Virus record (IMG/VR): IMGVR_UViG_3300033182_000538
Coordinates: 102,989 to 166,988 of that record
DNA length: 64,000 nucleotides
Source: a virus
Reading direction: 5' to 3' (one strand)
The notes under the pieces were generated by a model, which was not told the origin of the DNA, did no database searches, and saw nothing but the letters and a program-made list of their open reading frames with translations. The translations under genes were made by a program, and so were the position numbers. The number at the start of each line of letters is the position of its first letter. The first letter of the stretch is position 1. Of this stretch, positions 36,979-53,773 are shown one piece after another.

Positions 36979-37015
36979 TATTTTCTCCTAAATTAAATCT
37001 TTGGGTTTACCTTTA

Positions 37016-37023
37016 TATAAATA
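37016..37023 (-). promoter_or_regulatory. Putative late promoter TATTTATA (representative of about 15 copies)
   Basis: TAYTTATW recurs in intergenic DNA upstream of structural genes; see findings. Confidence 0.6.
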
Positions 37024-37048
37024 CTCCAAAAATTCTCAAAACGACTAT

Positions 37049-38216: not shown

Positions 38217-38744
38217 TTATAATCCTAATGGTACTTCGTTATCGTTTTGTCGAGAGTTACCTTTATAAGTATCTACTAATTTAATAGTTGATTGTCTTGT
38301 AACGTGAGCATCACATATAATAGATACATTAAGACCTTGTGTATCACCACCATCCCAAGTATCTGGATTTTTACCAGCAAAATACTGATATGAATATGAA
38401 GCATCTATTAAATGATATTCATTATTCCATTGAATAATATCACCAACTTCAGGTACAAGATTTTTATCAACTAAAGTATCTCTTAAAAATCTAAACTGAA
38501 CTTCACGAGAGTATGATTGTCCAAAGTCATCAGATATTTGAGCTGCTTGACCTCTTTCTATTAAACAAGGAACTTTTATTGGTTGGTTATAAACTTTATC
38601 TTTACCCTCACCATATAAATTAGATTTAGTTTCGGTCAATGCGACTTGATAATAGTATATCTCCGTATCAACAATATCATTGATAAGTTCTTTGTTTACT
38701 TTATTAAACAACGACATATCTCTTTGTCCACCGAATAATGCCAT
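38217..38744 (-). CDS. Neck / head-closure protein (gp14-like)
   Basis: NLYGE and PEVGDII; synteny. Confidence 0.7.
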   Translation of the reverse strand: MALFGGQRDMSLFNKVNKELINDIVDTEIYYYQVALTETKSNLYGEGKDKVYNQPIKVPCLIERGQAAQISDDFGQSYSREVQFRFLRDTLVDKNLVPEVGDIIQWNNEYHLIDASYSYQYFAGKNPDTWDGGDTQGLNVSIICDAHVTRQSTIKLVDTYKGNSRQNDNEVPLGL

Positions 38745-38748
38745 TTAA

Positions 38749-39912
38749 TTATCCTATGTAAATTGGTCTTGGGACTCTATTAAGTGTTTCTTCTAAATAT
38801 TCAGATTCTTCTTTTTTAGCTTCCATCAATGCTCTACGAGAAGTAGATTCTAACATCTCAGTTAATTGAGTCATCAATGTTTCCTTTTCAGCAGATGCTT
38901 CGTTACGAAGGTCAGACCCATCAAGAGTTACATCAGCGCCAGGAATTGGAATCGCTGAGAACTTAGCTCTTACAGCACCCAACATCTCTTTAGCCAATGC
39001 TAATGTGTATCTTGCAATCCATTGTTTTCCAGCTGAGTTAATTTTATTATATTCTAATCTTCCAAATGGAGCGTTTGATAAATCACTCACAACATTTGAA
39101 GCTGCGATTGGTGAATTCACTTCTGAATCTAATGTATAATCGAAGTATACTTTACTACCTTCATCACCGCTCGTTGGTTTTGGGAATAATCTAATTCTTT
39201 GACCATCAACGTGGAAACCAAATGATGATTTTCTAATATGGTCATTGAACTCAATAGCTTGAAGTCTTAAAAGGTCATCAAACATTGGTTGCATCATAAA
39301 TGATACGCCCGGTGAATAAGCTCCCCATCCAAATGTTTGTAACATTTGTTGTGAACCAAGACCTGTACCTACGAATGGGTCAAAGTATCTAATGATTGCC
39401 GGTGGTTGAGTGTGGTATACTCTACGAAGAGTTACACCATTTGAAACTGAACCACTTTCTAAATCAACAACATCAGCATTACCCAAATCATAAATTTGTT
39501 GACCACCAACCATTTGGAAAGAACCTGTATAGACAGTAACCTTACCACCACTCAATGCCTCAGTACCATAATCTTTTGCGATATTTACTAAGTTTTGCAT
39601 ATTGTTGTTCATATTGGTATTTGATAAATCCAAATCCAAAGATGAACCTTGAAGTGATAATAAATTTTCCTTAGCTCTATATTGATTCACTTGAGATGAA
39701 TACTCATTTGTTGCTTCTTCAAAACAAGCAAAGAAATTGATGTCTTGAAGTTCAACATCAACGATTGGGTATCCTAATCTCTTAGCACACCATTCAGCTA
39801 CTTTCGGTGCGTCTGATTGGAATTGTGTATCCGTATCAAAATATCCGAAAGGAGTTGATGAACCTGTGACAAATGAACCAGAACCTGGCCATATTGGAAT
39901 ATTTACTGACAT
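38749..39912 (-). CDS. Neck protein (gp13-like)
   Basis: RLGYPIVDVEL, WIARYTLALAKEMLGAVRAKF, IPGADVTLDG. Confidence 0.8.
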   Translation of the reverse strand: MSVNIPIWPGSGSFVTGSSTPFGYFDTDTQFQSDAPKVAEWCAKRLGYPIVDVELQDINFFACFEEATNEYSSQVNQYRAKENLLSLQGSSLDLDLSNTNMNNNMQNLVNIAKDYGTEALSGGKVTVYTGSFQMVGGQQIYDLGNADVVDLESGSVSNGVTLRRVYHTQPPAIIRYFDPFVGTGLGSQQMLQTFGWGAYSPGVSFMMQPMFDDLLRLQAIEFNDHIRKSSFGFHVDGQRIRLFPKPTSGDEGSKVYFDYTLDSEVNSPIAASNVVSDLSNAPFGRLEYNKINSAGKQWIARYTLALAKEMLGAVRAKFSAIPIPGADVTLDGSDLRNEASAEKETLMTQLTEMLESTSRRALMEAKKEESEYLEETLNRVPRPIYIG

Positions 39913-39947
39913 TTACATCTCCTTTATGTATATAAATATGGTAATAC

Positions 39948-41624
39948 TTACCTTTCCAAATTATTCATAAAAGAAACTACGATATATCGTGTTCCATCGG
40001 TGGTAGCTCGTGCTCCGTGCTTATGAGTAATATTTCCAGGATGTAGACTAGCATACCCTATTGGTGCCTTTACTAATTGCTTTTGTCTTCTGAACCAAGT
40101 ACCACCCCCTTCATACTCATCTAAGTCTGAAAGTTGTACCAAACACGTTATGTCTGACTTATCGTGGTGGATTGATAAATGACCTTGAGCAGTTGGTGTA
40201 TATTTAGCTAAAAAGTTTTCAGATGTTAAATTATCCCAACCAGGTCCTTCCAATGCCCACATATAAACTCCAAGTGGCATTACATATTCACGAAGAACTT
40301 CCATATAAATATCCTGCATTCCAATTGTTTCTAAAATCATATCGGTTGTAGGATAGTTTTCGTGTCTATCAACAGTCCAAGAGTTTGAGTGTTCGGCTTC
40401 TTCACGAATCATTCTACAAAAGTCGGCTGTAAATAGTGGGAAATTAAAACAACTATCAAATGGCTCATCCACTATCAATTCCCATTCTTTTGTTCTCATA
40501 GCATATGCTATAAACTTACGCTTCCACTCATCTGGGTTATCATAGTAACTATATAATTCAGGATGTAATCTATTTGATGATTCTATCATATCAATCCATT
40601 CGTTGTATCTAATTGACCAATCTTGATTTCTAGCAAATTCTTCAGCTAAAGTTAAAAGTTTAGAAGATATATCATCTCGCTCATTTAAGAATAAATAAGA
40701 TGATACAATTGCTTCGTTCATTGCGTTTGTTGGTAAGGTTGAATCTACCAAAGTACTTCTACCACCCAATAGTGACACTAAATTACCCGTATCTGAAGAT
40801 ATTATCTTTACACCACCCATCATCATTTCAAGGGCTGTGATACAATATGTTTCATCATACTTTGATGGGTAAATCCAATACTCGGATGATTTAATTTGTC
40901 TATATAAGTCTCTTGGTGACAAACTTCCTAACCAATTAACATCATCTAAATCTTTTTTATAGTCATCATACCACTCCATAGCGTATGGTGGTGATGCTAC
41001 CCATAAAGTTAGTTGAGGATTTATACTTTTTAGCTTAGGCCAAATTTTTAATAAGTTTTCAAGACCTCTATCTGCTGCTGATGTGTATATTACTTTATTT
41101 TTATATTTTTCTTGGTCAATTTCATCAAAATCAGATACACTTATAGCATTTCCCAATACTTTCACTCGTGTGGGAGTAATATTGTAAGTATCACACAAAA
41201 TATTCTTTTGATATTCTGATACTGCTATAAAGTTTGTGATTCTATTGTCTTTTAGGTAGTCTAATCCATTATTTGGTAACATTTCACCATTATACCACCC
41301 ATAAAACTCATTATTATGTATCCAAAAATAAGATTTGTCATATGTAATACCAAAATCATCCAATAGAGGTAAATAATGAATATAATTACTTGCGATTACA
41401 ACATCAAAGTGAGTATTACCCTCTAAATCGGAATACTCCGTGAATGTAACACCAGAATCATAATCGGAATTAACATCTCCCGATACAATTACCTCGTGAC
41501 CATTTTGTGCAAACTCTTCAGCTAACTTTATAACACAATATTCTGAACCACCAAGTCCGTTTTCTAACCAATATTGTTTATTTATTGATTCTTTTTGATA
41601 ACCTAAACAAAATAATACTCTCAT
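39948..41624 (-). CDS. Fusion of a GT-B (GT4-like) glycosyltransferase and a PLOD-like lysyl hydroxylase
   Basis: N-terminal: GLGGSE, VSEYQ, YTSAADRGL, YPSKYDETYCITALE. C-terminal: LHPELY..NP.EWK, FPLF..DFC, ENYPTTDM, HHD, YEGGG, LHPGNITHKHG, GTRYIVVSF. Confidence 0.85.
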   Translation of the reverse strand: MRVLFCLGYQKESINKQYWLENGLGGSEYCVIKLAEEFAQNGHEVIVSGDVNSDYDSGVTFTEYSDLEGNTHFDVVIASNYIHYLPLLDDFGITYDKSYFWIHNNEFYGWYNGEMLPNNGLDYLKDNRITNFIAVSEYQKNILCDTYNITPTRVKVLGNAISVSDFDEIDQEKYKNKVIYTSAADRGLENLLKIWPKLKSINPQLTLWVASPPYAMEWYDDYKKDLDDVNWLGSLSPRDLYRQIKSSEYWIYPSKYDETYCITALEMMMGGVKIISSDTGNLVSLLGGRSTLVDSTLPTNAMNEAIVSSYLFLNERDDISSKLLTLAEEFARNQDWSIRYNEWIDMIESSNRLHPELYSYYDNPDEWKRKFIAYAMRTKEWELIVDEPFDSCFNFPLFTADFCRMIREEAEHSNSWTVDRHENYPTTDMILETIGMQDIYMEVLREYVMPLGVYMWALEGPGWDNLTSENFLAKYTPTAQGHLSIHHDKSDITCLVQLSDLDEYEGGGTWFRRQKQLVKAPIGYASLHPGNITHKHGARATTDGTRYIVVSFMNNLER

Positions 41625-41625
41625 A

Positions 41626-42918
41626 CTACTCTACTATATAATTTAATACTTCTTCTCTATCAAAATACCTACTTCTATCCATCCAAGCTTGAAGTTGGTA
41701 TGACTTATTGTTTTCTTCATCCCAAGACCAATCAAATTTACCCAACTCTTGAATCCGTTCGTGAATATATGGGTCATAATAATCTCTAATTAGTCTAGCT
41801 CTACGATTTATATCAACTCTATTGTTGTCAACTGTAGAATTACCATCATTATATTGTACATACAACATCTTTTTTAAGTGAATCATTCGAGTTTCTAAGA
41901 ATGTCTTTACAACTAACTCATAATCATCAGCTACTGATATATTTCTACTATGTCCTCGTATCTTATGATAAGTATCTCGATTCCAAACTCTACAATGATT
42001 TGGCATTCCGATATTAAATCGTATTGTTTTTGGATTTATTTCAGGATAATGATGTGTTAACCATTTTTGCCCATCAAATTCTTCCCAACTATGACCTCCA
42101 TACGACCAAACAAATCCATTTTCAGGATGTGCGTACCAATCATCACCAATTCTACCATATTGTCTTGGTGACCCATCGGCTTCAATCTCAGTTACATCAG
42201 TATAAACAAACCCAGCGTCTGGATATTTCTTACTTGCGTTTAAAACATCTTCCAAACAAGTTGAAATAAGGACATCATCGTGGTCTAATTCAAATAACCA
42301 CTCACCATTACACAACATCGCCGCTCTATGTTTGACCTCGCCAACATTTCCATTAGAAGTTGGACTCATTTTATAGATATTAACTCTATAATCAGTCTCA
42401 GCTATATCTTGTAAGTACTCCCAAGTTAAATTATGACCTTCGGGTGAATCATCTACAACAACCCATTCCCAATTTTCATAAGTTTGATTTACTAAACTTT
42501 CATATGTTCTAAAAATCCTCTCAGTTGTTTTGTACGCTGGAGTAAATACTGATAATATTGGTGTGTCTTTATCACCATAAACTTCTTTTTGTGATTTACA
42601 AGACCAAAATGTTGACTGACACACTACATCATTAGCCAAAATGTTGTCGGCTGGGATACTATCATATGATACTATCTTACTTGAAATCATCGTGTGGTGT
42701 CCCATTTGTAAAATTTGATTAGGATACTCACCTATAACAAGTATTACATCAGGTCTATGTTTAGCAAAGTGTTTTTTAAAATCAATTGAAGATTCATATG
42801 AGTATAAAATTATTTTTTCATATAAGTTTTCCTCAAAATAAACATCTGATATTAGTTGGTGTTCACCAAACCTATCCCAACCATAAACCAAAGCCGTTGG
42901 AAGTCCTGTTTTTCTCAT
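41626..42918 (-). CDS. GT2-family glycosyltransferase
   Basis: SVFTPAYK, QTYENWEWVVVDDS, LDHDD (DxD), ADDYEL. Confidence 0.88.
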   Translation of the reverse strand: MRKTGLPTALVYGWDRFGEHQLISDVYFEENLYEKIILYSYESSIDFKKHFAKHRPDVILVIGEYPNQILQMGHHTMISSKIVSYDSIPADNILANDVVCQSTFWSCKSQKEVYGDKDTPILSVFTPAYKTTERIFRTYESLVNQTYENWEWVVVDDSPEGHNLTWEYLQDIAETDYRVNIYKMSPTSNGNVGEVKHRAAMLCNGEWLFELDHDDVLISTCLEDVLNASKKYPDAGFVYTDVTEIEADGSPRQYGRIGDDWYAHPENGFVWSYGGHSWEEFDGQKWLTHHYPEINPKTIRFNIGMPNHCRVWNRDTYHKIRGHSRNISVADDYELVVKTFLETRMIHLKKMLYVQYNDGNSTVDNNRVDINRRARLIRDYYDPYIHERIQELGKFDWSWDEENNKSYQLQAWMDRSRYFDREEVLNYIVE

Positions 42919-42921
42919 AAT

Positions 42922-43524
42922 TTATCTATATGGTTCACCACCCACCCAAAGTACAAACGATTTTCGAATACCCTTGGTTACAGGTTTTACTCTATGTAAA
43001 TAAAATGATGGGAAAATCACAGCAGCTCCTTGATTTTTAGGAACTGTAATATGTCTACCTATGTTGAATTCTAAATCACCACCTTCGTAATCTTCGGATG
43101 ATGACAATTGAACAGTTACTGATATTTTTCTTTGATTTTGAATATCTACACCACAATCCATATGCCATTCATAACCACCTTCATTAGTTCCATAGTACTC
43201 AGTATATTGAATTTTTTCTTCCATAGTACTTAAATCAAACTTCCACATAGTATCGTTAGCTTCAGTAATCATATTATGTAGTTTTTCATAAACCCAAGCC
43301 CACTCTAAATTTTGTGGACACCATTTTATTCTTGATTTTCTATAATCTGAAACTTTTGCCGAATCTCCTTCGCCAGTTACAGCATCTTGAAATTCTAAGT
43401 TGGATGTCATTTGTTCAATGAGTACTAATTCTTGGGGAGTGAATCCATTTTTGAACCAATAATAATCATTGAAAGTTACATCTTGCCTATATGAGTTACG
43501 GCTAAATGAGAATTTTTTATTCAT
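42922..43524 (-). CDS. 2OG-Fe(II) oxygenase, prolyl-4-hydroxylase/PKHD type
   Basis: WHMD, RKISVTVQLS, YEGGDL, FPS...HRVKPVTKGIRKSFVLW. Confidence 0.88.
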   Translation of the reverse strand: MNKKFSFSRNSYRQDVTFNDYYWFKNGFTPQELVLIEQMTSNLEFQDAVTGEGDSAKVSDYRKSRIKWCPQNLEWAWVYEKLHNMITEANDTMWKFDLSTMEEKIQYTEYYGTNEGGYEWHMDCGVDIQNQRKISVTVQLSSSEDYEGGDLEFNIGRHITVPKNQGAAVIFPSFYLHRVKPVTKGIRKSFVLWVGGEPYR

Positions 43525-43562
43525 AACTAATTTCTTTATATATAAATATGATTTTTTATTTA

Positions 43563-46500
43563 TTAAATACTACCACTATTAAATGTTCTGATAATATATA
43601 CAGGGTCTCCAGTTGTCCATCCATTTGGTTTAAATGTTAATTCACCACCATTATTACCATCTAATACTTCAAAGTACCCACCGCCAGTCATTTGATTACC
43701 TTTAGCGCCTTTTTGACCACCGCCACCAATGTTTCCTTTTAAACCTTGATTTCCTTTTGAACCTTTAGCTCCAGAATAACCAGTAAAGCCCGTATTACCT
43801 TTAGAACCCTTGTTACCAGCGGCACCTTTCTGACCTTTGTCACCAGCCCCACCAGTTGAACCAACGCTTCCCTTATCACCCAAATCACCATCAGAGTCAG
43901 TATCACCTTGATTACCAACAGTACCTGTTCTACCAGAGTTACCTGTAAGACCTGGCCCACCTTGAGCTCCCGTTGACCCATCTAATCCATCGGCGCCTTG
44001 AGCACCAACAGCACCAGTATTACCTTTACCACCCTGAGGGCCTAAGTTACCCTTTTGACCTTTATTTGCAGCTACACCAATATGACCTTTATCACCTTGG
44101 TTACCAGTTTGACCTTTTATTCCTTTATTACCTACCGAGCCAATATGACCTTTATCACCTTGAGTTCCTTGGTTACCTGTACTTCCCTTATCACCTGCGG
44201 CACCTGTTGTACCTTTTTGGCCTTTAAATCCTTGATTACCTTGAGAACCTAAGTCACCAGCCACACCAATATGACCTTTAACTCCAATAGCCCCATCTAA
44301 TCCATCAACACCTTGAGCTCCGGTGGCACCTTTTTGACCTTTTTGACCTTTAACACCTAAGACACCAATAGCTCCTTTATTTCCAGCATCACCTGCTGAG
44401 CCCTTTTGTCCTTTGATACCAGTTGTTCCCTTAGCTCCTTTATTTCCAGCAGCGCCTGGACCACCGACTGAGCCAGTATGTCCTTGATTACCCGTACTTC
44501 CCTTATCACCCGCGGCACCAGTATTACCTTTGTTACCTTTGAACCCCATAGTACCAATCGAGCCTTTGTTTCCAGCATCACCAGCCGCACCTTTTTGGCC
44601 TTTTATACCAATAGCACCTTTCGTACCTTTATTACCTGCGGCTCCCTTAGAGCCGGTTACACCAGTACCACCCGTGTTACCTTTAGAACCTTTTCCACCA
44701 CCAGCACCTGAACCACCTTGATTACCTTTTTGACCTGTGTTACCTTGAGCTCCTAAGTCGCCAGCTAAACCAATATGACCTTTAGAACCAACTGAACCAG
44801 GATTTCCATCAGAACCTTTATTTCCAGCGGCACCTTTCGTACCTTGATTACCTTTAGAACCAGTATTACCTTTAGAACCTTTATTTCCAGCATCACCAGC
44901 CGCACCTTTTTGGCCTTTGACGCCAGTAGCACCTTTAGAACCCTTACTTCCAGTAGCTCCAGTATTACCCTTAGCACCTACTGTACCGGGGTTTCCATCA
45001 GAACCTTTATCTCCGGCAGCGCCCGTATTACCTTTTTGGCCTTTTTGGCCTGTGTTACCTTGAGCTCCTAAGTCGCCAGCTACACCAATATGACCTTTAG
45101 CTCCTTGATTACCAGTATTACCTTTAGAGCCTTTGTTTCCAGCAGCACCTTTTCCACCACCAACACCTGACCCACCTGTGGCGCCTTTACTTCCTTTATT
45201 ACCGGCATCGCCCGTATTACCTTTGTTACCTTGTGGGCCTAAATTACCTTTTTGACCTTTACTCGCGGCTAAACCTATATGACCTTTAGCTCCTTGATTA
45301 CCAGTATTACCTTTAGAGCCTTTATTTCCAGCATTTCCACTAACACCAACGGCTCCAGTAGCTCCCGTTTGACCTTTTTGTCCTTTAGAGCCAGTATCAC
45401 CAGCAGCTCCATCAGCTCCCGAACTACCCGTAGCTCCAGCTGCACCGGCTTGACCACTTGTTCCTTTATTACCCGCGGCACCTGTGTTACCTTTAGCCCC
45501 TTGAGCTCCGGCTACACCCGTATTACCTTTTTGACCTTTATTTCCAGCAGCACCAGTTGCTCCAGCACTTTCGGGCTGTGCACCTTGAGCGCCTTGATTA
45601 CCCTTAGCACCTTTGTTTCCAGCAGCACCAACAGAACCTTGAGCTCCTGAAGTACCTTGTGGACCAGTATTACCTTTTGAACCTTTAGAGGCTCCACCAC
45701 CACTCGCACCAGTTTGACCTTTGGCACCAGTTTGGCCTTTTTGACCTTTACCACCTTGAGGGCCTTGATTACCAGCTGCACCTGTAGCACCAGTATCACC
45801 GTCTGGGCCAGTAGCACCTTGTGCACCTTTTGGCCCTGTATCACCTGCAGCACCCGTAGCACCCGTAGCACCACCTTGGCCTTTTTGGCCTTTACCACCT
45901 TGAGGGCCTTGATTACCAGCGGCACCTTGGGAACCAGTCCCACCGATTTCACCTTTTTGGCCTTTACTGCCTTGATGACCTTGCTCGCCAGCGGCACCTT
46001 GAGCTCCAGTTGCCCCACCTTGGCCTTTTTGTCCTTTACCACCTTGAGGGCCTTGATTACCAGCTGCACCTGTATTACCTTTTGCTCCTTGAGCACCAGT
46101 TACACCAGTATTACCTTTTGCGCCCGTAGCACCTGCGGCACCCTGACCGCCACCTTGGCCTTTTTGTCCTTTACCACCTTGAGGGCCTTGATTACCAGCA
46201 GCTCCAGCAGAACCTTGAGCTCCCGATGTACCTTGTGGACCAGTATTACCCTTAGCTCCCTTAGAAGCACCCCCACCACTTGCGCCGGTGTTACCCTTTT
46301 GCCCCTTTATACCTTTTGCGCCCGTAGCTCCCGCGGCACCTGTGTTACCTTTAGCCCCTTGAGCTCCAACCGCACCTTGGCCACCACCTGAACCTGGAGA
46401 ACCGGTTTGACCGCCCGGCGCAGAACCTACAGCACCTTGAGCACCTGAAGCACCAAGTCCTCCTTGAGCACCCTGACCACCCTGATTACCTTTTTGACCT

Positions 46501-47300
46501 TTTGAACCTTGAGGGCCTGTTCCTAAGTCTAAATCACCGCCTCCACCTCCGATAGAGCTTTCACAAGTAGTACAATTTGTATGTTCATCGTAGTCCCAAC
46601 TATTACCTGTATCGGTTAACTCGATTACTTCCCAACACCCATCTAACTCACCATTTGGAAATGAAACTACAGACCCAACTCCTAAAGCTCTGAGGGGGTC
46701 TGCTAAATTGTCAGTATCCTCTTCACCACATTTTTGAATTACCCAGCTTTTTGCGTTGTGAACTACAAATCCATCATTAATGTAGATATCTTGAGGTTCA
46801 ACATTGATATGATATGTTGTTTGTTGGGTTACTTCGGTAAATGCGTTTTCTATTCTTACATATTCAAATGAATTAGATGTTGTATCATAATGTATCAACC
46901 AATCACTTGTTGGTGATATATCTCCAAGACTTTTCCAAGAAACATCCCAATCAATTGAACCACTATCCCCACTTGTGGGTAGTGCTGTTAATATTTTTTC
47001 TCTATCTGAAAGAGTTATAGAGCCAGAATCAGTTTCTAATGTATATACAGTTTCAGCATTTACAGAACTACCCGAACCTACTACTGTTACATTGGTAGTA
47101 GTTAAAAAAGATGCTTCGTTAGTTGAACCTGATGGTGAATTGAAACTTCCAGTCCATTGAATAGAAGATTCATTATTCCAAGTATCATTTATACCACTAA
47201 GTTGTACACCAATAATGGTAGAACCTGAAGTGATATTATTAATTTGGTTTGACCCACCTTGGGTATTCAGTAATATGTCAGATGATGCTATAAAACCCAT
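43563..47300 (-). CDS. Collagen-like fibre protein 1 (Hint domain, Cys-rich domain, ~940-aa Gly-X-Y region, short C-terminal cap)
   Basis: Long Gly-X-Y run rich in GxKG; Hint C-terminal motif TYHINVEPQDIYINDGFVVHN. Confidence 0.9.
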   Translation of the reverse strand: MGFIASSDILLNTQGGSNQINNITSGSTIIGVQLSGINDTWNNESSIQWTGSFNSPSGSTNEASFLTTTNVTVVGSGSSVNAETVYTLETDSGSITLSDREKILTALPTSGDSGSIDWDVSWKSLGDISPTSDWLIHYDTTSNSFEYVRIENAFTEVTQQTTYHINVEPQDIYINDGFVVHNAKSWVIQKCGEEDTDNLADPLRALGVGSVVSFPNGELDGCWEVIELTDTGNSWDYDEHTNCTTCESSIGGGGGDLDLGTGPQGSKGQKGNQGGQGAQGGLGASGAQGAVGSAPGGQTGSPGSGGGQGAVGAQGAKGNTGAAGATGAKGIKGQKGNTGASGGGASKGAKGNTGPQGTSGAQGSAGAAGNQGPQGGKGQKGQGGGQGAAGATGAKGNTGVTGAQGAKGNTGAAGNQGPQGGKGQKGQGGATGAQGAAGEQGHQGSKGQKGEIGGTGSQGAAGNQGPQGGKGQKGQGGATGATGAAGDTGPKGAQGATGPDGDTGATGAAGNQGPQGGKGQKGQTGAKGQTGASGGGASKGSKGNTGPQGTSGAQGSVGAAGNKGAKGNQGAQGAQPESAGATGAAGNKGQKGNTGVAGAQGAKGNTGAAGNKGTSGQAGAAGATGSSGADGAAGDTGSKGQKGQTGATGAVGVSGNAGNKGSKGNTGNQGAKGHIGLAASKGQKGNLGPQGNKGNTGDAGNKGSKGATGGSGVGGGKGAAGNKGSKGNTGNQGAKGHIGVAGDLGAQGNTGQKGQKGNTGAAGDKGSDGNPGTVGAKGNTGATGSKGSKGATGVKGQKGAAGDAGNKGSKGNTGSKGNQGTKGAAGNKGSDGNPGSVGSKGHIGLAGDLGAQGNTGQKGNQGGSGAGGGKGSKGNTGGTGVTGSKGAAGNKGTKGAIGIKGQKGAAGDAGNKGSIGTMGFKGNKGNTGAAGDKGSTGNQGHTGSVGGPGAAGNKGAKGTTGIKGQKGSAGDAGNKGAIGVLGVKGQKGQKGATGAQGVDGLDGAIGVKGHIGVAGDLGSQGNQGFKGQKGTTGAAGDKGSTGNQGTQGDKGHIGSVGNKGIKGQTGNQGDKGHIGVAANKGQKGNLGPQGGKGNTGAVGAQGADGLDGSTGAQGGPGLTGNSGRTGTVGNQGDTDSDGDLGDKGSVGSTGGAGDKGQKGAAGNKGSKGNTGFTGYSGAKGSKGNQGLKGNIGGGGQKGAKGNQMTGGGYFEVLDGNNGGELTFKPNGWTTGDPVYIIRTFNSGSI

Positions 47301-47319
47301 TTATTAATACCTTTAATTA

Positions 47320-50300
47320 TTATACTGAACCACTCTGGTACATCAGAACAATTCCGGTAAATGAACCACTCGAAAACTCTAACAAACCACTATTCGTGTT
47401 AAATGCAAACCCACCATTTGCCAATCCACTAATAGTTGTACCCAACGCAGATTCACCTTTTTGACCTTGTGGCCCTTTAGCACCTTGTGCGCCACCAGCA
47501 CCTTGAGCTCCTTGTGGAGATGAACCTTGAGCTCCTTGAGCTCCTTGTGCGCCAGTTGGAGAAGCTCCTTGAGCTCCTTGAGGACTTGACCCTTGAGCGC
47601 CGTGGTCACCTTGTGGCCCTTTAGCACCTTGTGCTCCAGCGGCTCCTTGAGCTCCCTGCGCACCTTGTACACCCTGCGCACCTTGAGCGCCTTGTTGACC
47701 CTGATTACCTTGTGCACCTTGCGGGCCTTGAGCACCTGTTGGAGAAGCACCTTGAGCGCCTTGAGCCCCTTGTGGGCCTTTCGCACCTTGAGCTCCTTGA
47801 GGACTTGAACCTTGAGCACCTTGAGCACCTTGTGGGCCCTGTGCACCTTGGTCACCTTGTGGACTACCACCTTGAGCACCTTGAGCGCCTTGGTCACCCT
47901 GCGCACCCTGTGCACCCGTTGGAGAAGCTCCTTGAGCCCCTTGGTCACCCTGTTGTCCTTTTGAACCTTGAGCTCCTTGAGGTGATGAACCTTGTGCACC
48001 TTGAGCACCCGTTCCACCTTGAGCACCTTGAGCTCCAGTTGGAGAAGCTCCTTGAGCCCCTTGGTCACCTTTTGGCCCCTTAGCACCCTGTGCACCTTGA
48101 GGACTTGACCCTTGAGCACCTTGGTCACCCTTTGGCCCCTTAGCACCCTGTGCACCTTGAGGACTTGACCCTTGAGCACCTTGAGCCCCTTGGTCACCCT
48201 GCGCACCTTGAGCGCCAGTTGGAGAAGCCCCTTGAGCACCTTGTGCTCCCGTTGGCCCCTTTGGCCCTTGAGCGCCTTGAGGACTTGAACCTTGAGCACC
48301 TTGGTCACCTTTTGGCCCCTTAGCACCCTGTGCACCTTGAGGACTTGACCCTTGAGCACCTTGATTACCCTGAGCACCTTGCGCACCTTGGTCTCCTTGA
48401 GGTGATGACCCTTGAGCACCTTGAGCTCCTTGCGGGCCTTTCGCCCCTTGGGCTCCTTGAGGACTTGAACCTTGAGCACCTTGAGCACCCTGATTACCCT
48501 GTGCACCTTGGTCTCCTTTAGGAGATGAACCTTGAGCACCAGTTGCACCTTGAGCACCAGTAGCACCCTGCGCACCTTGTGGAGAAGCTCCTTGAGCCCC
48601 TTGGTCACCTTGTGGCCCTTTGGCTCCTTGAGCACCTTGAGGTGATGACCCTTGAGCACCTTGAGCACCCTGATTACCTTGTGCACCTTGGTCACCTTTA
48701 GGACTTGAACCTTGAGCCCCTTGGTCACCTTTCGGCCCTTTAGCTCCTTGAGCACCTTGAGGTGATGACCCTTGAGCACCTTGAGCTCCTTGCGGGCCTT
48801 TCGCCCCTTTAGCTCCTTGAGGTGAAGCCCCTTGAGCGCCTTGATTACCTTGCGCACCTTGTGCACCCTGAACCCCTTGAGGTGATGAACCTTGAGCACC
48901 TTGAGCACCTTGTGGGCCTTTTGCACCTTGAGCTCCTTGAGGACTTGAACCTTGAGCACCTTGAGCACCTTGTGGGCCCTGTGCACCTTGGTCTCCTTTA
49001 GGACTTGAACCTTGAGCACCAGTAGCACCTTGAGCGCCTTGTTGCCCCTTTTGACCTTTAGACCCTTGAGGTGAAGCCCCTTGAGCACCTTGTGGGCCCT
49101 GAGCACCTTGTTGCCCCTTTTGACCCTTAGCTCCTTGAGGTGATGCTCCTTGAGCACCTTGGTCGCCTTTTGGGCCTGTACTACCTTGAGCACCTTGAGC
49201 ACCTTGAGGTGATGAACCTTGTGCACCTTGATTACCCTTAGCACCTGTGGCACCTTGCGCGCCTTGGTCACCTTTGGGAGATGAACCTTGAGCACCTTGT
49301 GGGCCTTGTGGGCCCTGTGCACCTTGAGCACCTGTATCACCTTTTGGCCCTTGTGTTGCTGAACCTTGAGCACCTTGACCACCCTGATTACCTTTTTGCC
49401 CCTTTTGACCTTTAGCTCCTTGAGGTGAAGCCCCTTGAGCTCCCTGTAGGCCCTGAGCACCTGTTGGGCCCTGATTACCTTTAGCACCTTGGGGTGATGC
49501 TCCTTGAGCACCTTGTGGACCCTGAGCACCTGTGGCACCTTTCTGACCCTTAGCACCTTGGGGTGATGCTCCTTGAGCACCTTGTGGGCCCTGAGCACCT
49601 TGTTGCCCCTTTTGACCCTTAGCACCTTGAGGTGATGCTCCTTGAGCACCCTGACCACCCTGATTACCTTTTTGCCCCTTTTGACCCTTAGCTCCTTGGG
49701 GTGATGCTCCTTGAGCACCTTGGTCGCCTTTTGGGCCTGTACTACCTTGAGCACCTTGAGCACCTTGAGGTGATGAACCTTGAGCACCCGTGGCACCTTT
49801 TTGACCTTTCTGACCTTTAGCTCCTTGAGGTGAAGCACCTTGAGCACCTTGTGGGCCTTGTGGGCCCTGTGCACCTTGAGCACCTGTATCACCTTTTGGC
49901 CCTTGGGTTGCTGAACCTTGAGCACCCGTGGCACCTTTTTGACCTTTAGCTCCTTGAGGTGAAGCCCCTTGAGCACCTTGGTCGCCTTTTGGGCCTGTAC
50001 TACCTTGAGCGCCGGTTGAACCCGCTGGGCCTTGAGCACCTTTTTGACCCTTTGACCCGGCAGCACCTTGAGCTCCTTGCGGGCCTTTCGTACCTTGTGG
50101 ACCAGTTGGACCAGTGTTACCTTTTTGCCCTTTTTGACCCTTAGCACCCGTTGGGCCGGTGTTATGCATTAGAATAGAACCTACAAAGTAATTATGGTCA
50201 GGTTCTACTTCTATACTTACTATATCTAATTCTTCTTCTACTAATTGTAGTGAAGTTATTTTTACATTATCGTAAAATAAGTGAGTTGGACATCCGTGTT

Positions 50301-50583
50301 CACAATCACACGAATAAGCGTTTCCAATCGGAGATACCCATTCACCATTTTGAAAGAATTTTACATCAAGTGATGTTTTTAATTCAGTACCATCTGAAAG
50401 TGAGATTTGTAAATACGAGTCAACTTTAGAGGTTCTTATACAAACTACTCGGTTATCTCTAACGAGACCCGTTTCAATATCATAACCCTTTACGAAATCA
50501 CCAAGTTTAATGTCACCGATTTTGGTAACATTTCCATTGATTTCTATTAAGGTATCTTTATGTAATCCGTGTATCAATTCCAT
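47320..50583 (-). CDS. Collagen-like fibre protein 2 (Hint domain, ~900-aa interrupted Gly-X-Y region, short C-terminal cap)
   Basis: GAQ/GPQ/GAK triplets with periodic G[AS]SPQ interruptions; Hint C-terminal motif VSIEVEPDHNYFVGSILMHN/T. Confidence 0.9.
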   Translation of the reverse strand: MELIHGLHKDTLIEINGNVTKIGDIKLGDFVKGYDIETGLVRDNRVVCIRTSKVDSYLQISLSDGTELKTSLDVKFFQNGEWVSPIGNAYSCDCEHGCPTHLFYDNVKITSLQLVEEELDIVSIEVEPDHNYFVGSILMHNTGPTGAKGQKGQKGNTGPTGPQGTKGPQGAQGAAGSKGQKGAQGPAGSTGAQGSTGPKGDQGAQGASPQGAKGQKGATGAQGSATQGPKGDTGAQGAQGPQGPQGAQGASPQGAKGQKGQKGATGAQGSSPQGAQGAQGSTGPKGDQGAQGASPQGAKGQKGQKGNQGGQGAQGASPQGAKGQKGQQGAQGPQGAQGASPQGAKGQKGATGAQGPQGAQGASPQGAKGNQGPTGAQGLQGAQGASPQGAKGQKGQKGNQGGQGAQGSATQGPKGDTGAQGAQGPQGPQGAQGSSPKGDQGAQGATGAKGNQGAQGSSPQGAQGAQGSTGPKGDQGAQGASPQGAKGQKGQQGAQGPQGAQGASPQGSKGQKGQQGAQGATGAQGSSPKGDQGAQGPQGAQGAQGSSPQGAQGAKGPQGAQGAQGSSPQGVQGAQGAQGNQGAQGASPQGAKGAKGPQGAQGAQGSSPQGAQGAKGPKGDQGAQGSSPKGDQGAQGNQGAQGAQGSSPQGAQGAKGPQGDQGAQGASPQGAQGATGAQGATGAQGSSPKGDQGAQGNQGAQGAQGSSPQGAQGAKGPQGAQGAQGSSPQGDQGAQGAQGNQGAQGSSPQGAQGAKGPKGDQGAQGSSPQGAQGPKGPTGAQGAQGASPTGAQGAQGDQGAQGAQGSSPQGAQGAKGPKGDQGAQGSSPQGAQGAKGPKGDQGAQGASPTGAQGAQGGTGAQGAQGSSPQGAQGSKGQQGDQGAQGASPTGAQGAQGDQGAQGAQGGSPQGDQGAQGPQGAQGAQGSSPQGAQGAKGPQGAQGAQGASPTGAQGPQGAQGNQGQQGAQGAQGVQGAQGAQGAAGAQGAKGPQGDHGAQGSSPQGAQGASPTGAQGAQGAQGSSPQGAQGAGGAQGAKGPQGQKGESALGTTISGLANGGFAFNTNSGLLEFSSGSFTGIVLMYQSGSV

Positions 50584-50595
50584 AATCTATACCCC

Positions 50596-51447
50596 TTATT
50601 GTGTTACGTTTAGGATTAAAACCACATTAAAACTATAACCTGATGCTCTCGATAAACTTGTTCTATTAACAAAGAGACTTAAATGGTCGCCACTATCAAA
50701 TGAATAATTGGTTGCGCCAAATGTATATGTTGTTGATGCACCAGCTGTACTACTTATAGTTTGAGTTTGTGTAGTTAGGCCCGTGCTATTTAAGAATGGA
50801 GTAATTGAAAGATTTCCACCTAGAGCATTTTGATGTGGGTGTACTATAATCTCTTTTATGTATCCATCATACGGAGCGTACCATCTATTATATCCAAATG
50901 GTATTAGTGATGTAGCATTTATACCAGCCCAAGGTGCAAATCCACTTAGATAAAAACTTGGGAATTCAAATGCTAACGGAATTAATTCAGGGGTTTGTAT
51001 CCACGAAAAAGAAGCAGACTCGGCTGTTATTAAACCACTTGAAGAAACTTCGAACTGAGATATACCAGACCCATCATTTACTTGGAAGAGGGTGTCTGAG
51101 ATGGTGTCAGTTACCTTGATTAACTCACCATTTGAACCAGATACAATAAAGATATCATTACCATCATTATCGTGAATTATTTCAGTCTTTTCTTCATTGT
51201 GGAATATAGAAGATGTCATAATCTCCGTAGACCCACTAAACATTGGTATGTAATTTAAGGTACCTGAACCTGTTACTGTAACAGGAGTTCCCCCATTCAG
51301 TTGAAATCGTTGTGTGGATGACCCCAATGAAAGGGTGTTATCCGAATCTGGCATAATATCTTGGGATGTGAGTATTCCACCAGATGCTGTTATTTCGTTT
51401 AATACTGCATCGCTTCCGGAAACGATGACTTTTTTCCAATTTGGCAT
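50596..51447 (-). CDS. Putative fibre-associated virion protein
   Basis: N-terminus MPNWKKVIVSGS is shared with 52000-53676; first gene of the collagen operon. Confidence 0.55.
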   Translation of the reverse strand: MPNWKKVIVSGSDAVLNEITASGGILTSQDIMPDSDNTLSLGSSTQRFQLNGGTPVTVTGSGTLNYIPMFSGSTEIMTSSIFHNEEKTEIIHDNDGNDIFIVSGSNGELIKVTDTISDTLFQVNDGSGISQFEVSSSGLITAESASFSWIQTPELIPLAFEFPSFYLSGFAPWAGINATSLIPFGYNRWYAPYDGYIKEIIVHPHQNALGGNLSITPFLNSTGLTTQTQTISSTAGASTTYTFGATNYSFDSGDHLSLFVNRTSLSRASGYSFNVVLILNVTQ

Positions 51448-51464
51448 ATTCTCTTCCTATTTGC

Positions 51465-51509
51465 GGTTGGTTACACTTACGTGCCCACTTCCCATTCGGG
51501 CCAACAACC
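51465..51509 (-). ncRNA. Candidate structured cis-regulatory RNA (three-way junction) in a 5' leader
   Basis: GUUGG-[CCC gaau GGG]-AAGUGG-[GCAC guaa GUGU]-AA-CCAAC; a GC-rich island in AT-rich intergenic DNA. Confidence 0.45.
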
Positions 51510-51546
51510 AGGTTTATTCTACTTTACTTATATAAGTATTAAATTT

Positions 51547-51576
51547 AAAAAATAAAATCCCCATAGGTGGGGATTC
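51547..51576 (-). terminator. Rho-independent terminator
   Basis: AATCCCCA-ccta-TGGGGATT-TTATTTTTT. Confidence 0.7.
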
Positions 51577-51578
51577 AT

Positions 51579-51770
51579 TTATTCTTTTGTGATAATATCA
51601 CCTTTTTTAGGTCTTTTAGATTTTGGAATTTCTAATAAATCAATTTCCATTTGAACTTTTCTTTGTAAGTCAACCATCATCATTGCGTCAGCGCCTGTGA
51701 TTGGTAGCTTTTCTAAAGCCATTCTTATAACTTTCAAATCAGTTTGATTTAAACCTTCATAAGCTTTCAT
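51579..51770 (-). CDS. Small hypothetical protein (possible fibre chaperone)
   Basis: 63 aa; 'ITGADA' segment resembles 'FQGKDL' in the neighbour. Confidence 0.5.
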   Translation of the reverse strand: MKAYEGLNQTDLKVIRMALEKLPITGADAMMMVDLQRKVQMEIDLLEIPKSKRPKKGDIITKE

Positions 51771-53676: not shown

Positions 53677-53773
53677 TTTGTTTTCCTTTTTTTTGTGTTA
53701 ACACTTTATTTTATTGATATATCAATTCGTAACTTGTTTACTTTATATAAGTATATTTTTTTTATTTAAAACA

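What the first reader, a model, noticed from the sequence alone, without database searches (positions are those of the whole stretch)
39948..41624. Animal-type lysyl hydroxylase domain fused to a different glycosyltransferase fold
Seen: the C-terminal ~210 aa (about 39948-40570) read LHPELYSYYDNPDEWK...IVDEPFDSCFNFPLF...ENYPTTDM...HHDKS...YEGGG...LHPGNITHKHG...GTRYIVVSF. From memory, these track the human PLOD3 segments LHPDLWQIFDNPVDWK / IVEQPCPDVYWFPL / ENVPTVDI / HHDSS / LHPGRLTHYHEG / GTRYIMVSF. The match extends beyond the generic 2OG core, and the Fe ligands and 2OG-binding Arg appear intact. The N-terminal partner has GT-B (GT4-like) motifs, whereas PLOD's own glycosyltransferase is GT-A. 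Inference: the bifunctional LH/GT architecture arose convergently, which bears on the origin of PLODs.
Basis: partly seen in the sequence, partly recalled or inferred. Interest (0 to 1): 0.82.

Follow-up and report, generated by a model that had tools for sequence, protein, structure and literature searches.

The report
Phage GT4–lysyl hydroxylase fusion enzyme
A large uncultured T4-like bacteriophage encodes one protein that joins a bacterial-type sugar transferase to a clear relative of the animal collagen lysine hydroxylase, right behind two giant lysine-rich collagen-like fibre genes, so the phage probably hydroxylates and sugar-coats its own fibres, a chemistry I found described only for animals and giant viruses.

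Summary
ORF 39948-41624 (-), 558 aa, has an N-terminal GT-B/GT4 domain and a C-terminal domain that matches the human LH3/PLOD3 hydroxylase domain at E=1.4e-33. Generic PKHD hydroxylases score E~0.7. The iron ligands and the 2OG-binding Arg are invariant across the family.

The gene is the last of a co-directional block: two collagen-like proteins, a small 2OG oxygenase, a GT2, then the fusion. The collagens have 146 Lys at the Y position of Gly-X-Y and none at X. At least 424 IMG/VR contigs encode a relative. The block recurs wherever enough flank is held (collagen 42/42).

The "convergent fusion" reading is only partly supported. The closest relatives of the LH domain are GT4-GT25-LH proteins whose middle domain is of the GT25 family (that of COLGALT). 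This genome and five related two-domain genomes each carry a stand-alone GT25; the one three-domain genome checked carries only the internal one. LH also occurs as GT25-LH, PLOD-type GT-A-LH and alone. Domain shuffling in an aquatic microbial and viral pool fits better than a single convergence.

The animal and giant-virus clade is separate, and the deeper branching and the root are unresolved. No activity was tested. This scan has flagged the same family in other phage genomes.

The parts
39948..41624 (-). GT4-LH fusion gene, 558 aa (stop codon included)
   Evidence: ORF. Pfam GT4-type and OGFOD2-like hits. PDB sequence matches. AF2 model and Foldseek matches.
40593..41624 (-). N-terminal GT-B (GT4-like) glycosyltransferase domain, residues 1-344, with EX7E motif E258...E266
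   Evidence: PF00534 34.5 bits, PF13692 33.6 and PF13439 32.0, all above their gathering scores. Structural matches to PimA, MshA, BshA, HepE and glycogen synthase, target TM 0.56-0.71. E266 is invariant and E258 is at least 90% conserved.
39951..40577 (-). C-terminal PLOD-type lysyl hydroxylase domain, residues 350-558. Fe ligands H486, D488 and H536; 2OG-binding R546.
   Evidence: E=1.4e-33 to human LH3 residues 500-714. Ligands invariant in the family. TM 0.87 and rmsd 2.3 A to L230 structure 6ax6.
41626..42918 (-). GT2-family (GT-A, inverting-type) glycosyltransferase, 430 aa, one base upstream of the fusion
   Evidence: PF00535 E=5.4e-15. Best PDB match is chondroitin synthase, E=5.5e-12. 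Present in 61 of 64 related viral loci.
42922..43524 (-). Small PKHD-type 2OG-Fe(II) oxygenase, 200 aa
   Evidence: PF13640 E=9e-14. PiuC-type PDB hits at E~4e-6. Present in 64 of 64 related viral loci.
43563..47300 (-). Collagen-like protein 1, 1245 aa: 307 Gly-X-Y triplets, Lys 95 at Y and 0 at X, Pro 5 at Y. Proposed substrate.
   Evidence: PF01391 E=1.6e-108 and tail-fibre PHROGs. Position counts.
47320..50583 (-). Collagen-like protein 2, 1087 aa: 273 triplets, Lys 51 at Y and 0 at X, Pro 0 at Y. Proposed substrate.
   Evidence: PF01391 E=4e-74. Position counts.
43539..43549 (-). Intergenic motif ATATTTATATA just upstream of the three enzyme genes. It is a possible lineage-specific late promoter element.
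   Evidence: 15 matches with up to 1 mismatch in the window, against 5.1 expected, and 14 of them on the coding (-) strand. Several I checked lie just upstream of gene starts.

Best explanation
The gene encodes a bifunctional collagen-modifying enzyme of a T4-like phage. Proposed mechanism: the C-terminal domain uses Fe(II), 2-oxoglutarate and O2 to hydroxylate the Y-position lysines (X-Lys-Gly) of the two collagen-like fibre proteins encoded just upstream. The N-terminal retaining-type GT4 domain then takes part in glycosylating the resulting hydroxylysines. It most likely adds an alpha-linked sugar onto a first sugar installed by an inverting GT-A enzyme, either the stand-alone COLGALT-like GT25 of the same genome or the adjacent GT2, or both. 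On this reading the GT4 domain is the analogue of the GT-A glucosyltransferase domain of animal LH3. Shown here: domain identities, folds, intact catalytic residues, conserved gene context, substrate-like lysine placement, and the complementary distribution of GT25. Inferred: the substrate, the order of steps, the sugars and linkages, and any effect on the fibres.
For: LH identity: E=1.4e-33 to LH3, against E~0.7 for generic PKHD enzymes. The fold matches L230 and LH3. H486, D488, H536 and R546 are invariant in 32 homologues. GT4 identity: Pfam hits above gathering scores, a GT-B fold and a conserved EX7E motif. Substrate: all 146 triple-helix lysines of the two neighbouring collagens are at Y and none at X. 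X-Lys-Gly is the site that LH3 and L230 hydroxylate (PMC9614988). Context: the genes abut with gaps of 1-38 nt on one strand. Among the 80 best of 424 IMG/VR relatives, a same-strand collagen-like ORF lies upstream in 42/42 loci with more than 4 kb of flank. The small oxygenase is present in 64/64, the GT2 in 61/64 and gp13 downstream in 80/80. GT25 link: sister phages carry GT4-GT25-LH in the same slot. All 6 of 6 two-domain genomes checked (this one, CheckV completeness 87%, and five at 90% or more) carry a stand-alone GT25. The one 98%-complete three-domain genome carries only the internal GT25. The stand-alone GT25's best solved match is human COLGALT1, E=3e-16.
Against: No biochemical or proteomic data exist. 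Hydroxylysine has not been shown in any phage fibre as far as I could find. Bacterial chromosomal homologues (42-47% identical; Aliishimia, Granulosicoccaceae, a Chromatiales bacterium, a Rhodobacteraceae MAG) have no collagen-like ORF within 6-10 kb, so the family is not tied to collagen everywhere. More distant three-domain members in jumbo-phage-like contigs also lack an adjacent collagen. Lys at Y is common in bacterial collagen-like proteins for stability reasons (my own knowledge), so its placement alone is weak evidence. The acceptor of the GT4 domain is pure inference. The complementarity of GT25 rests on a single three-domain genome.
Confidence: 0.7

Rival explanations
1. Split roles. 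The LH domain hydroxylates fibre lysines, but the GT4 domain does not act on hydroxylysine. It glycosylates something else: Ser/Thr of the fibre, another virion protein, or a host envelope polymer. Hyl glycosylation, if any, is done by GT25 or GT2 alone.
For: GT4 enzymes are typical polysaccharide, LPS and glycolipid transferases, and the nearest NCBIfam and PDB hits are of that kind. Thr and Ser are frequent at Y in the collagens. In mimivirus L230 the GT25-like domain alone glucosylates Hyl (PMC9614988).
Against: GT4 and LH stay fused across bacteria and phages, while GT25 comes and goes between them. That argues for a shared substrate. The gene sits inside the fibre and virion late block in 80/80 loci.
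Confidence: 0.17
2. Non-collagen target. The enzyme hydroxylates and glycosylates lysines, or another residue, of a host or phage protein that is not collagen-like. The adjacency to the collagen genes reflects only the layout of the late operon.
For: Bacterial homologues stand alone, with no collagen gene nearby. Distant three-domain members also lack adjacent collagens.
Against: The 42/42 co-occurrence with collagen-like ORFs in the T4-like lineage. The exclusive Y placement of lysine. Both experimentally characterised relatives, LH3 and L230, act on X-Lys-Gly.
Confidence: 0.09
3. Inactive remnant. One or both domains are catalytically dead and serve as a scaffold or a fibre chaperone.
For: The AF2 model has low-confidence loops at residues 483-485 and 532-537, next to the metal ligands.
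Against: The Fe ligands, the 2OG-binding Arg and the EX7E glutamates are invariant or nearly so down to 27% identity. Metal-site loops are often poorly modelled without the metal.
Confidence: 0.03

Closest known systems
Human LH3 / PLOD3 (multifunctional procollagen lysine hydroxylase and glycosyltransferase; PDB 6fxk, 8zgc)
   Same: The C-terminal LH domain is homologous over its whole length, including the helical part before the DSBH core (E=1.4e-33). It has the same HxD...H triad and 2OG-binding Arg. A hydroxylase and a glycosyltransferase sit on one chain. The presumed substrate is Lys at Y of Gly-X-Y.
   Different: In LH3 the glycosyltransferase is a GT-A domain followed by an accessory domain. 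Here it is a GT-B/GT4 domain with no accessory domain. The phage LH domain lies outside the well-supported eukaryote and giant-virus clade. The protein is a cytoplasmic phage enzyme, not an ER enzyme.
Acanthamoeba polyphaga mimivirus L230 (lysyl hydroxylase / hydroxylysine glucosyltransferase; PDB 6ax6)
   Same: It is a virus-encoded LH domain (E=3.6e-19; TM 0.87) that acts on the virus's own proline-poor, lysine-rich collagen-like proteins (PMC9614988).
   Different: L230 belongs to a virus of eukaryotes. Its transferase domain is GT25/GLT25D1-like (PMC9614988), and L230-like metagenomic proteins align with nearly the whole of LH3. The phage protein uses GT4, and its genome keeps GT25 as a separate gene.
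GT4-GT25-LH three-domain proteins of sister phages (e.g. P0076, 788 aa; uncharacterised)
   Same: The LH domain is 76-77% identical and the GT4 domain scores E=1e-110. The gene occupies the same slot, between GT2 and gp13 and downstream of collagen-like genes.
   Different: About 235 residues of GT25 lie between GT4 and LH. The window's protein lacks them, and its genome has a 248-aa GT25 gene about 100 kb away that is only 30% identical to that insert.
Human COLGALT1 (GT25 procollagen galactosyltransferase; PDB 9evj, 8zgc), as partner enzyme
   Same: It is the best solved match of the genome's stand-alone GT25 (E=3e-16, against 4e-4 for a bacterial GT25). An EDD motif is invariant in the four aligned phage GT25 sequences.
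   Different: The phage protein is a single 248-aa domain without COLGALT1's N-terminal non-catalytic domain. It lies outside the window, and its acceptor and donor are unknown.
Retaining GT4 glycosyltransferases (PimA, MshA, BshA, HepE)
   Same: GT-B fold with target TM 0.64-0.71, and an EX7E motif.
   Different: Sequence identity is only 13-17%. None of them is fused to an oxygenase or known to act on hydroxylysine.

Membership tests
PLOD/LH-type collagen lysyl hydroxylase domain | Sequence homology across the whole LH domain, including the helical extension before the DSBH core | tested here: met
   Residues 350-554 align with LH3 500-714 at E=1.4e-33. Generic PKHD enzymes score E~0.7.
PLOD/LH-type collagen lysyl hydroxylase domain | Fe(II) triad HxD...H and the 2OG-binding Arg | tested here: met
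   H486, D488, H536 and R546 align with the corresponding LH3 residues and are invariant in 32 homologues.
PLOD/LH-type collagen lysyl hydroxylase domain | Three-dimensional fold of the LH domain | tested here: met
   AF2 model against L230 structure 6ax6: target TM 0.87, rmsd 2.3 A over 205 columns. LH3 entries are the top hits.
PLOD/LH-type collagen lysyl hydroxylase domain | Hydroxylation of Lys in X-Lys-Gly | not testable with these tools
   Only the context speaks for it: 146 Lys at Y and 0 at X in the adjacent collagens.
PLOD/LH-type collagen lysyl hydroxylase domain | Dimerisation through the LH domain, as in L230 and the human LHs | not tested
   No homodimer prediction was run.
Metazoan/giant-virus PLOD proteins proper (LH1-3, L230) | N-terminal PLOD-type GT-A domain followed by an accessory domain | tested here: not met
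   There is no PF25342 (GT_PLOD) hit. The N-domain is GT-B.
Metazoan/giant-virus PLOD proteins proper (LH1-3, L230) | Placement inside the eukaryote plus L230-like clade of LH domains | tested here: not met
   That clade (anchored by Lingula, Choanoeca and Gordionus, plus GT25-GT_PLOD-LH forms) has SH-aLRT 99. The window's domain lies outside it, next to GT4-GT25-LH proteins.
Mimivirus L230-type architecture | GT25-like transferase domain on the same chain as LH | tested here: not met
   The fusion has no PF01755 hit. GT25 is a separate gene at G000:C1:45852-46598.
GT4 (retaining GT-B glycosyltransferases) | Family-level sequence match | tested here: met
   PF00534, PF13692 and PF13439 all score above their gathering cut-offs. 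A formal CAZy assignment could not be made with these tools.
GT4 (retaining GT-B glycosyltransferases) | GT-B fold of two Rossmann-like domains | tested here: met
   Foldseek matches to PimA, MshA, BshA, HepE and a Bacillus anthracis GT4 enzyme, target TM 0.64-0.71.
GT4 (retaining GT-B glycosyltransferases) | EX7E motif | tested here: met
   E258-x7-E266 is visible in the sequence. E266 is invariant and E258 is at least 90% conserved.
GT4 (retaining GT-B glycosyltransferases) | Retaining transfer from a nucleotide sugar; donor and acceptor identity | not testable with these tools
   This needs an enzyme assay.
Generic bacterial PKHD/P4H-type 2OG oxygenases | Best matches are to PiuC/YbiX-type or P4H-type models | tested here: not met
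   PiuC scores E~0.7 and the NCBIfam PKHD models E>=1e-3, far below cut-off. By contrast, the neighbouring 200-aa oxygenase is of this type.

The most novel reading that the evidence does not exclude
A widespread lineage of aquatic T4-like phages carries the full logic of animal collagen lysine glycosylation. It has a PLOD-type hydroxylase, a COLGALT-type GT25 and a second retaining transferase (GT4 in place of LH3's GT-A), and applies them to its own fibres. On this reading the animal and giant-virus PLOD/COLGALT system descends from this microbial and viral pool of shuffled LH, GT25 and GT-A modules, rather than being an animal invention later copied by viruses.
Probability: 0.25. Interest if true: 0.88.

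Novelty: new variant of a known kind. Interest (0 to 1): 0.7.

Why it matters
[quoted passage not shown] In this window a bacteriophage encodes a PLOD-type hydroxylase, a COLGALT-like GT25 and lysine-rich collagen-like fibres. At least 424 IMG/VR viral contigs encode a relative of the fusion, and the fibre-enzyme block recurs in those with enough flank.

If the enzyme is active, three things follow:
- Post-translationally hydroxylated and glycosylated collagen would be extended to viruses of bacteria.
- It would provide a small, soluble LH-GT enzyme that should be expressible in E. coli, useful for making modified recombinant collagens.
- It would provide the sequence diversity needed to test where the animal PLOD and COLGALT enzymes came from.

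For phage biology, it points to glycan-coated collagen fibres as a host-recognition or stability device.

Tried and rejected
1. A complex prediction of the fusion (alignment A1) with the stand-alone GT25 (alignment A3) returned "no answer", score 0.00. It is not evidence either way.

2. Using a 28-sequence alignment of single-domain LH proteins to scan bacterial genomes failed, because no stretch was conserved enough. The family alignment A1 was used instead.

3. The window's own 200-aa oxygenase and a Pseudomonas phage oxygenase were tried as outgroups. They gave branches of 8.6 and 3.5 substitutions per site and fell inside the ingroup. I treat that as a long-branch artefact and disregard those two rows. 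Only the S-CAM9, S-8S56 and CRP-6 C-terminal domains behaved as an outgroup.

4. The sigma-70 promoter and intrinsic terminator scans of 38700-51700 gave counts no higher than in shuffled sequence.

5. tblastn of the fusion against 50,697 deposited phage genomes found no record covering 80% or more of it. No cultured phage outside any withheld near-identical record is shown to carry the fusion.

6. Five full-text literature searches found no paper on a phage or bacterial PLOD-type lysyl hydroxylase. The Luther et al. 2011 L230 paper is not held, so L230 facts come from the review PMC9614988.

7. I rejected the idea that the window's GT25 arose by simple fission of the three-domain gene. It is only 30% identical to the GT25 insert of the closest three-domain relative.

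Full report
**What is there**

The window is the last 64 kb of a 167-kb IMG/VR virus record with a CheckV completeness of 87%. It is a T4-like myovirus. It encodes a gp23-type capsid protein, gp13, gp15, a tail sheath and PhoH. The sheath is 57% identical to that of Microcystis phage Mel-JY01, its nearest deposited relative.

ORF 39948-41624 on the - strand gives a 558-aa protein.

**The hydroxylase domain**

- Residues 350-554 align with residues 500-714 of human LH3/PLOD3 at E=1.4e-33.
- They align with the solved LH domain of mimivirus L230 at E=3.6e-19.
- The next oxygenase, the PKHD-type PiuC, scores E~0.7.
- The alignment begins about 90 residues before the DSBH core, so the similarity is specific to lysyl hydroxylases.
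- H486-x-D488, H536 and R546 align with LH3's iron ligands and 2OG-binding arginine. All four are invariant in 32 homologues, down to 27% identity.
- In an AlphaFold2 model (mean pLDDT 88.6) this domain superposes on L230 with TM 0.87 and rmsd 2.3 A. LH3 entries are the top Foldseek hits.

**The transferase domain**

- Residues 1-344 pass the Pfam gathering scores of three GT4/GT1-type families.
- They carry an EX7E motif (E258...E266) that is conserved in the family.
- They model as a GT-B fold that matches PimA, MshA, BshA, HepE and glycogen synthase, with target TM 0.56-0.71.
- There is no hit to the PLOD GT-A domain (PF25342) or to GT25.

**Context**

Five genes abut on the - strand with gaps of 1-38 nt:

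- collagen-like protein 2 (47320-50583)
- collagen-like protein 1 (43563-47300)
- a 200-aa PKHD-type oxygenase (42922-43524)
- a GT2 (41626-42918)
- the fusion (39948-41624), followed by gp13

The two collagens hold 307 and 273 Gly-X-Y triplets. Lysine is at Y 95 and 51 times and never at X. Proline is almost absent from Y, at 5 and 0. X-Lys-Gly is the site hydroxylated by LH3 and L230 (PMC9614988). These are the only collagen-like ORFs in the genome.

An intergenic motif, ATATTTATATA on the coding strand, precedes the oxygenase-GT2-fusion trio and also precedes gp13. Related copies lie ahead of other late genes. There are 15 matches against 5.1 expected, and 14 are on the coding strand.

**How general it is**

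- The 5.8-billion-protein search found more than 100 clusters of full-length relatives. They include a roughly 790-aa form with a GT25 domain between GT4 and LH.
- In IMG/VR, 424 contigs encode a relative.
- Among the best 80 loci, gp13 follows in 80/80.
- The small oxygenase precedes in 64/64 and the GT2 in 61/64 of loci with enough flank.
- A same-strand collagen-like ORF, rich in Lys at Y and almost without Pro at Y, precedes in 42/42 loci with more than 4 kb upstream.
- The three-domain phages have the same layout.
- Eight bacterial genomes or MAGs also carry a relative, five of them full-length at 42-47% identity. They include Granulosicoccaceae, a Chromatiales symbiont of Bugula, Aliishimia, a Rhodobacteraceae MAG, Flavobacteriaceae, Thiotrichales and Aquimarina. 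None has a collagen-like ORF nearby.
- No deposited phage genome covers the fusion. No NCBIfam model names it.

**The GT25 link**

The genome has a separate 248-aa GT25 gene at G000:C1:45852-46598, outside the window. Its best solved match is human procollagen galactosyltransferase COLGALT1 at E=3e-16, against 4e-4 for a bacterial GT25. It is 30% identical to the GT25 insert of P0076.

All five related two-domain genomes that are at least 90% complete also have a stand-alone GT25. The one 98%-complete three-domain genome has only the internal domain. This complementary pattern suggests that GT25 works with GT4-LH whether fused or free. It rests on a single three-domain genome.

**Evolution**

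An exhaustive profile-free search with the LH domain gave 2,098 representatives at E<=1e-3 and 88 at E<=1e-30. Their architectures include GT4-GT25-LH, GT25-LH, GT4-LH, LH alone, PLOD-type GT-A-LH, GT25-GT-A-LH and GT25-LH-TPR.

- In an LH-domain tree, the named eukaryotes (Lingula PLOD1, a Choanoeca protein, Gordionus) and the L230-like GT25-GT-A-LH proteins form one clade with support 99. One of those L230-like proteins aligns with nearly the whole of LH3 at E=1e-102.
- The window's domain lies in the other part of the tree, next to P0076.
- PLOD-type GT-A-LH forms also occur in that microbial part, for example the marine P0144.
- A tree of GT4 plus LH shows a bacterial two-domain clade, a phage two-domain clade with a nested three-domain subclade, and a large three-domain clade. 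GT25 was therefore gained or lost at least three times, while GT4 and LH stayed together.
- Rooted with the C-terminal oxygenase domains of phages S-CAM9, S-8S56 and CRP-6, the eukaryote and giant-virus clade appears as one branch of a mostly microbial radiation. However, the backbone is an unresolved polytomy and these are quick trees.

**Reading**

The most likely function is hydroxylation of the Y-position lysines of the phage's own collagen-like fibres, followed by glycosylation of the hydroxylysines. The retaining GT4 domain would play the role of LH3's retaining GT-A domain. An inverting GT-A enzyme (GT25, GT2 or both) would install the first sugar. I put this at about 0.7.

The identities, folds, catalytic residues, context and distribution are shown. 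The substrate, the order of steps, the sugars and the biological effect are inferred.

It misses two points. The family's closest members, and this genome itself, carry the same GT25 family that animals and mimivirus use. The LH domain has also been recombined with several transferases many times.

**Prior notes and literature**

Other first-stage notes and three follow-up reports of this scan describe the same family on other phage genomes. My results agree with them. They add the domain census, the trees and the GT25 complementarity.

I found no paper describing a phage or bacterial PLOD-type lysyl hydroxylase in the held library. A 2010 comparative-genomics paper predicted that other bacterial dioxygenase families modify collagen-like proteins (PMC2938197).

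Noticed in passing
window 43539-43549, 39929-39939, 51529-51539, 53744-53754, 37014-37024, 34026-36 (- strand): The motif ATA(T/C)TTATATA lies on the coding strand shortly upstream of several late-gene starts. There are 15 matches against 5.1 expected, and 14 are on the - strand. It reads as the reverse complement of the T4 late promoter core TATAAATA, so the plus-strand 'late motif' hits are on the wrong strand for these genes. It may be a lineage-specific late promoter.
   Followed up: partly
G000:C1:45852-46598 (outside the window; L001:1105-1851, - strand): A stand-alone 248-aa GT25 glycosyltransferase whose best solved match is human COLGALT1 (E=3e-16). It is conserved in five related phage genomes. 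In one of them (G001) two GT25 units sit in a single 517-aa open frame.
   Followed up: yes
L116:13293-16154 (contig labelled as a Neptunomonas phycophila MAG, phage-like gene content): A 953-aa Peptidase_M9 (microbial collagenase family) gene lies about 750 nt downstream of a GT4-GT25-LH gene, with two small ORFs between them. This is an enzyme that cuts collagen next to one predicted to modify it.
   Followed up: no
window 42922-43524 (-): The 200-aa oxygenase in the block is a generic PKHD/PiuC-type enzyme, not a collagen P4H. The neighbouring collagens have proline almost only at X, not at the Y position that P4H hydroxylates. Its substrate is therefore unclear.
   Followed up: partly
L095, L097, L098 (Synechococcus phages S-CAM9 and S-8S56, Roseobacter phage CRP-6): The nearest oxygenase relatives in cultured phages are the C-terminal parts of roughly 590-620-aa 'hypothetical proteins' (24-29% identity to the LH domain). 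Their N-terminal parts were not examined.
   Followed up: no
L115:4893-8426: A tellurite-resistance-like TelA/TerF/TerC/TerD gene set lies just upstream of a three-domain GT4-GT25-LH gene in a 163-kb phage-like contig.
   Followed up: no
L036, L037, L073-L077, L089, L093: A sub-lineage of the two-domain phages lacks the GT2 gene between the small oxygenase and the fusion. The GT2 step is therefore dispensable or replaced there.
   Followed up: no
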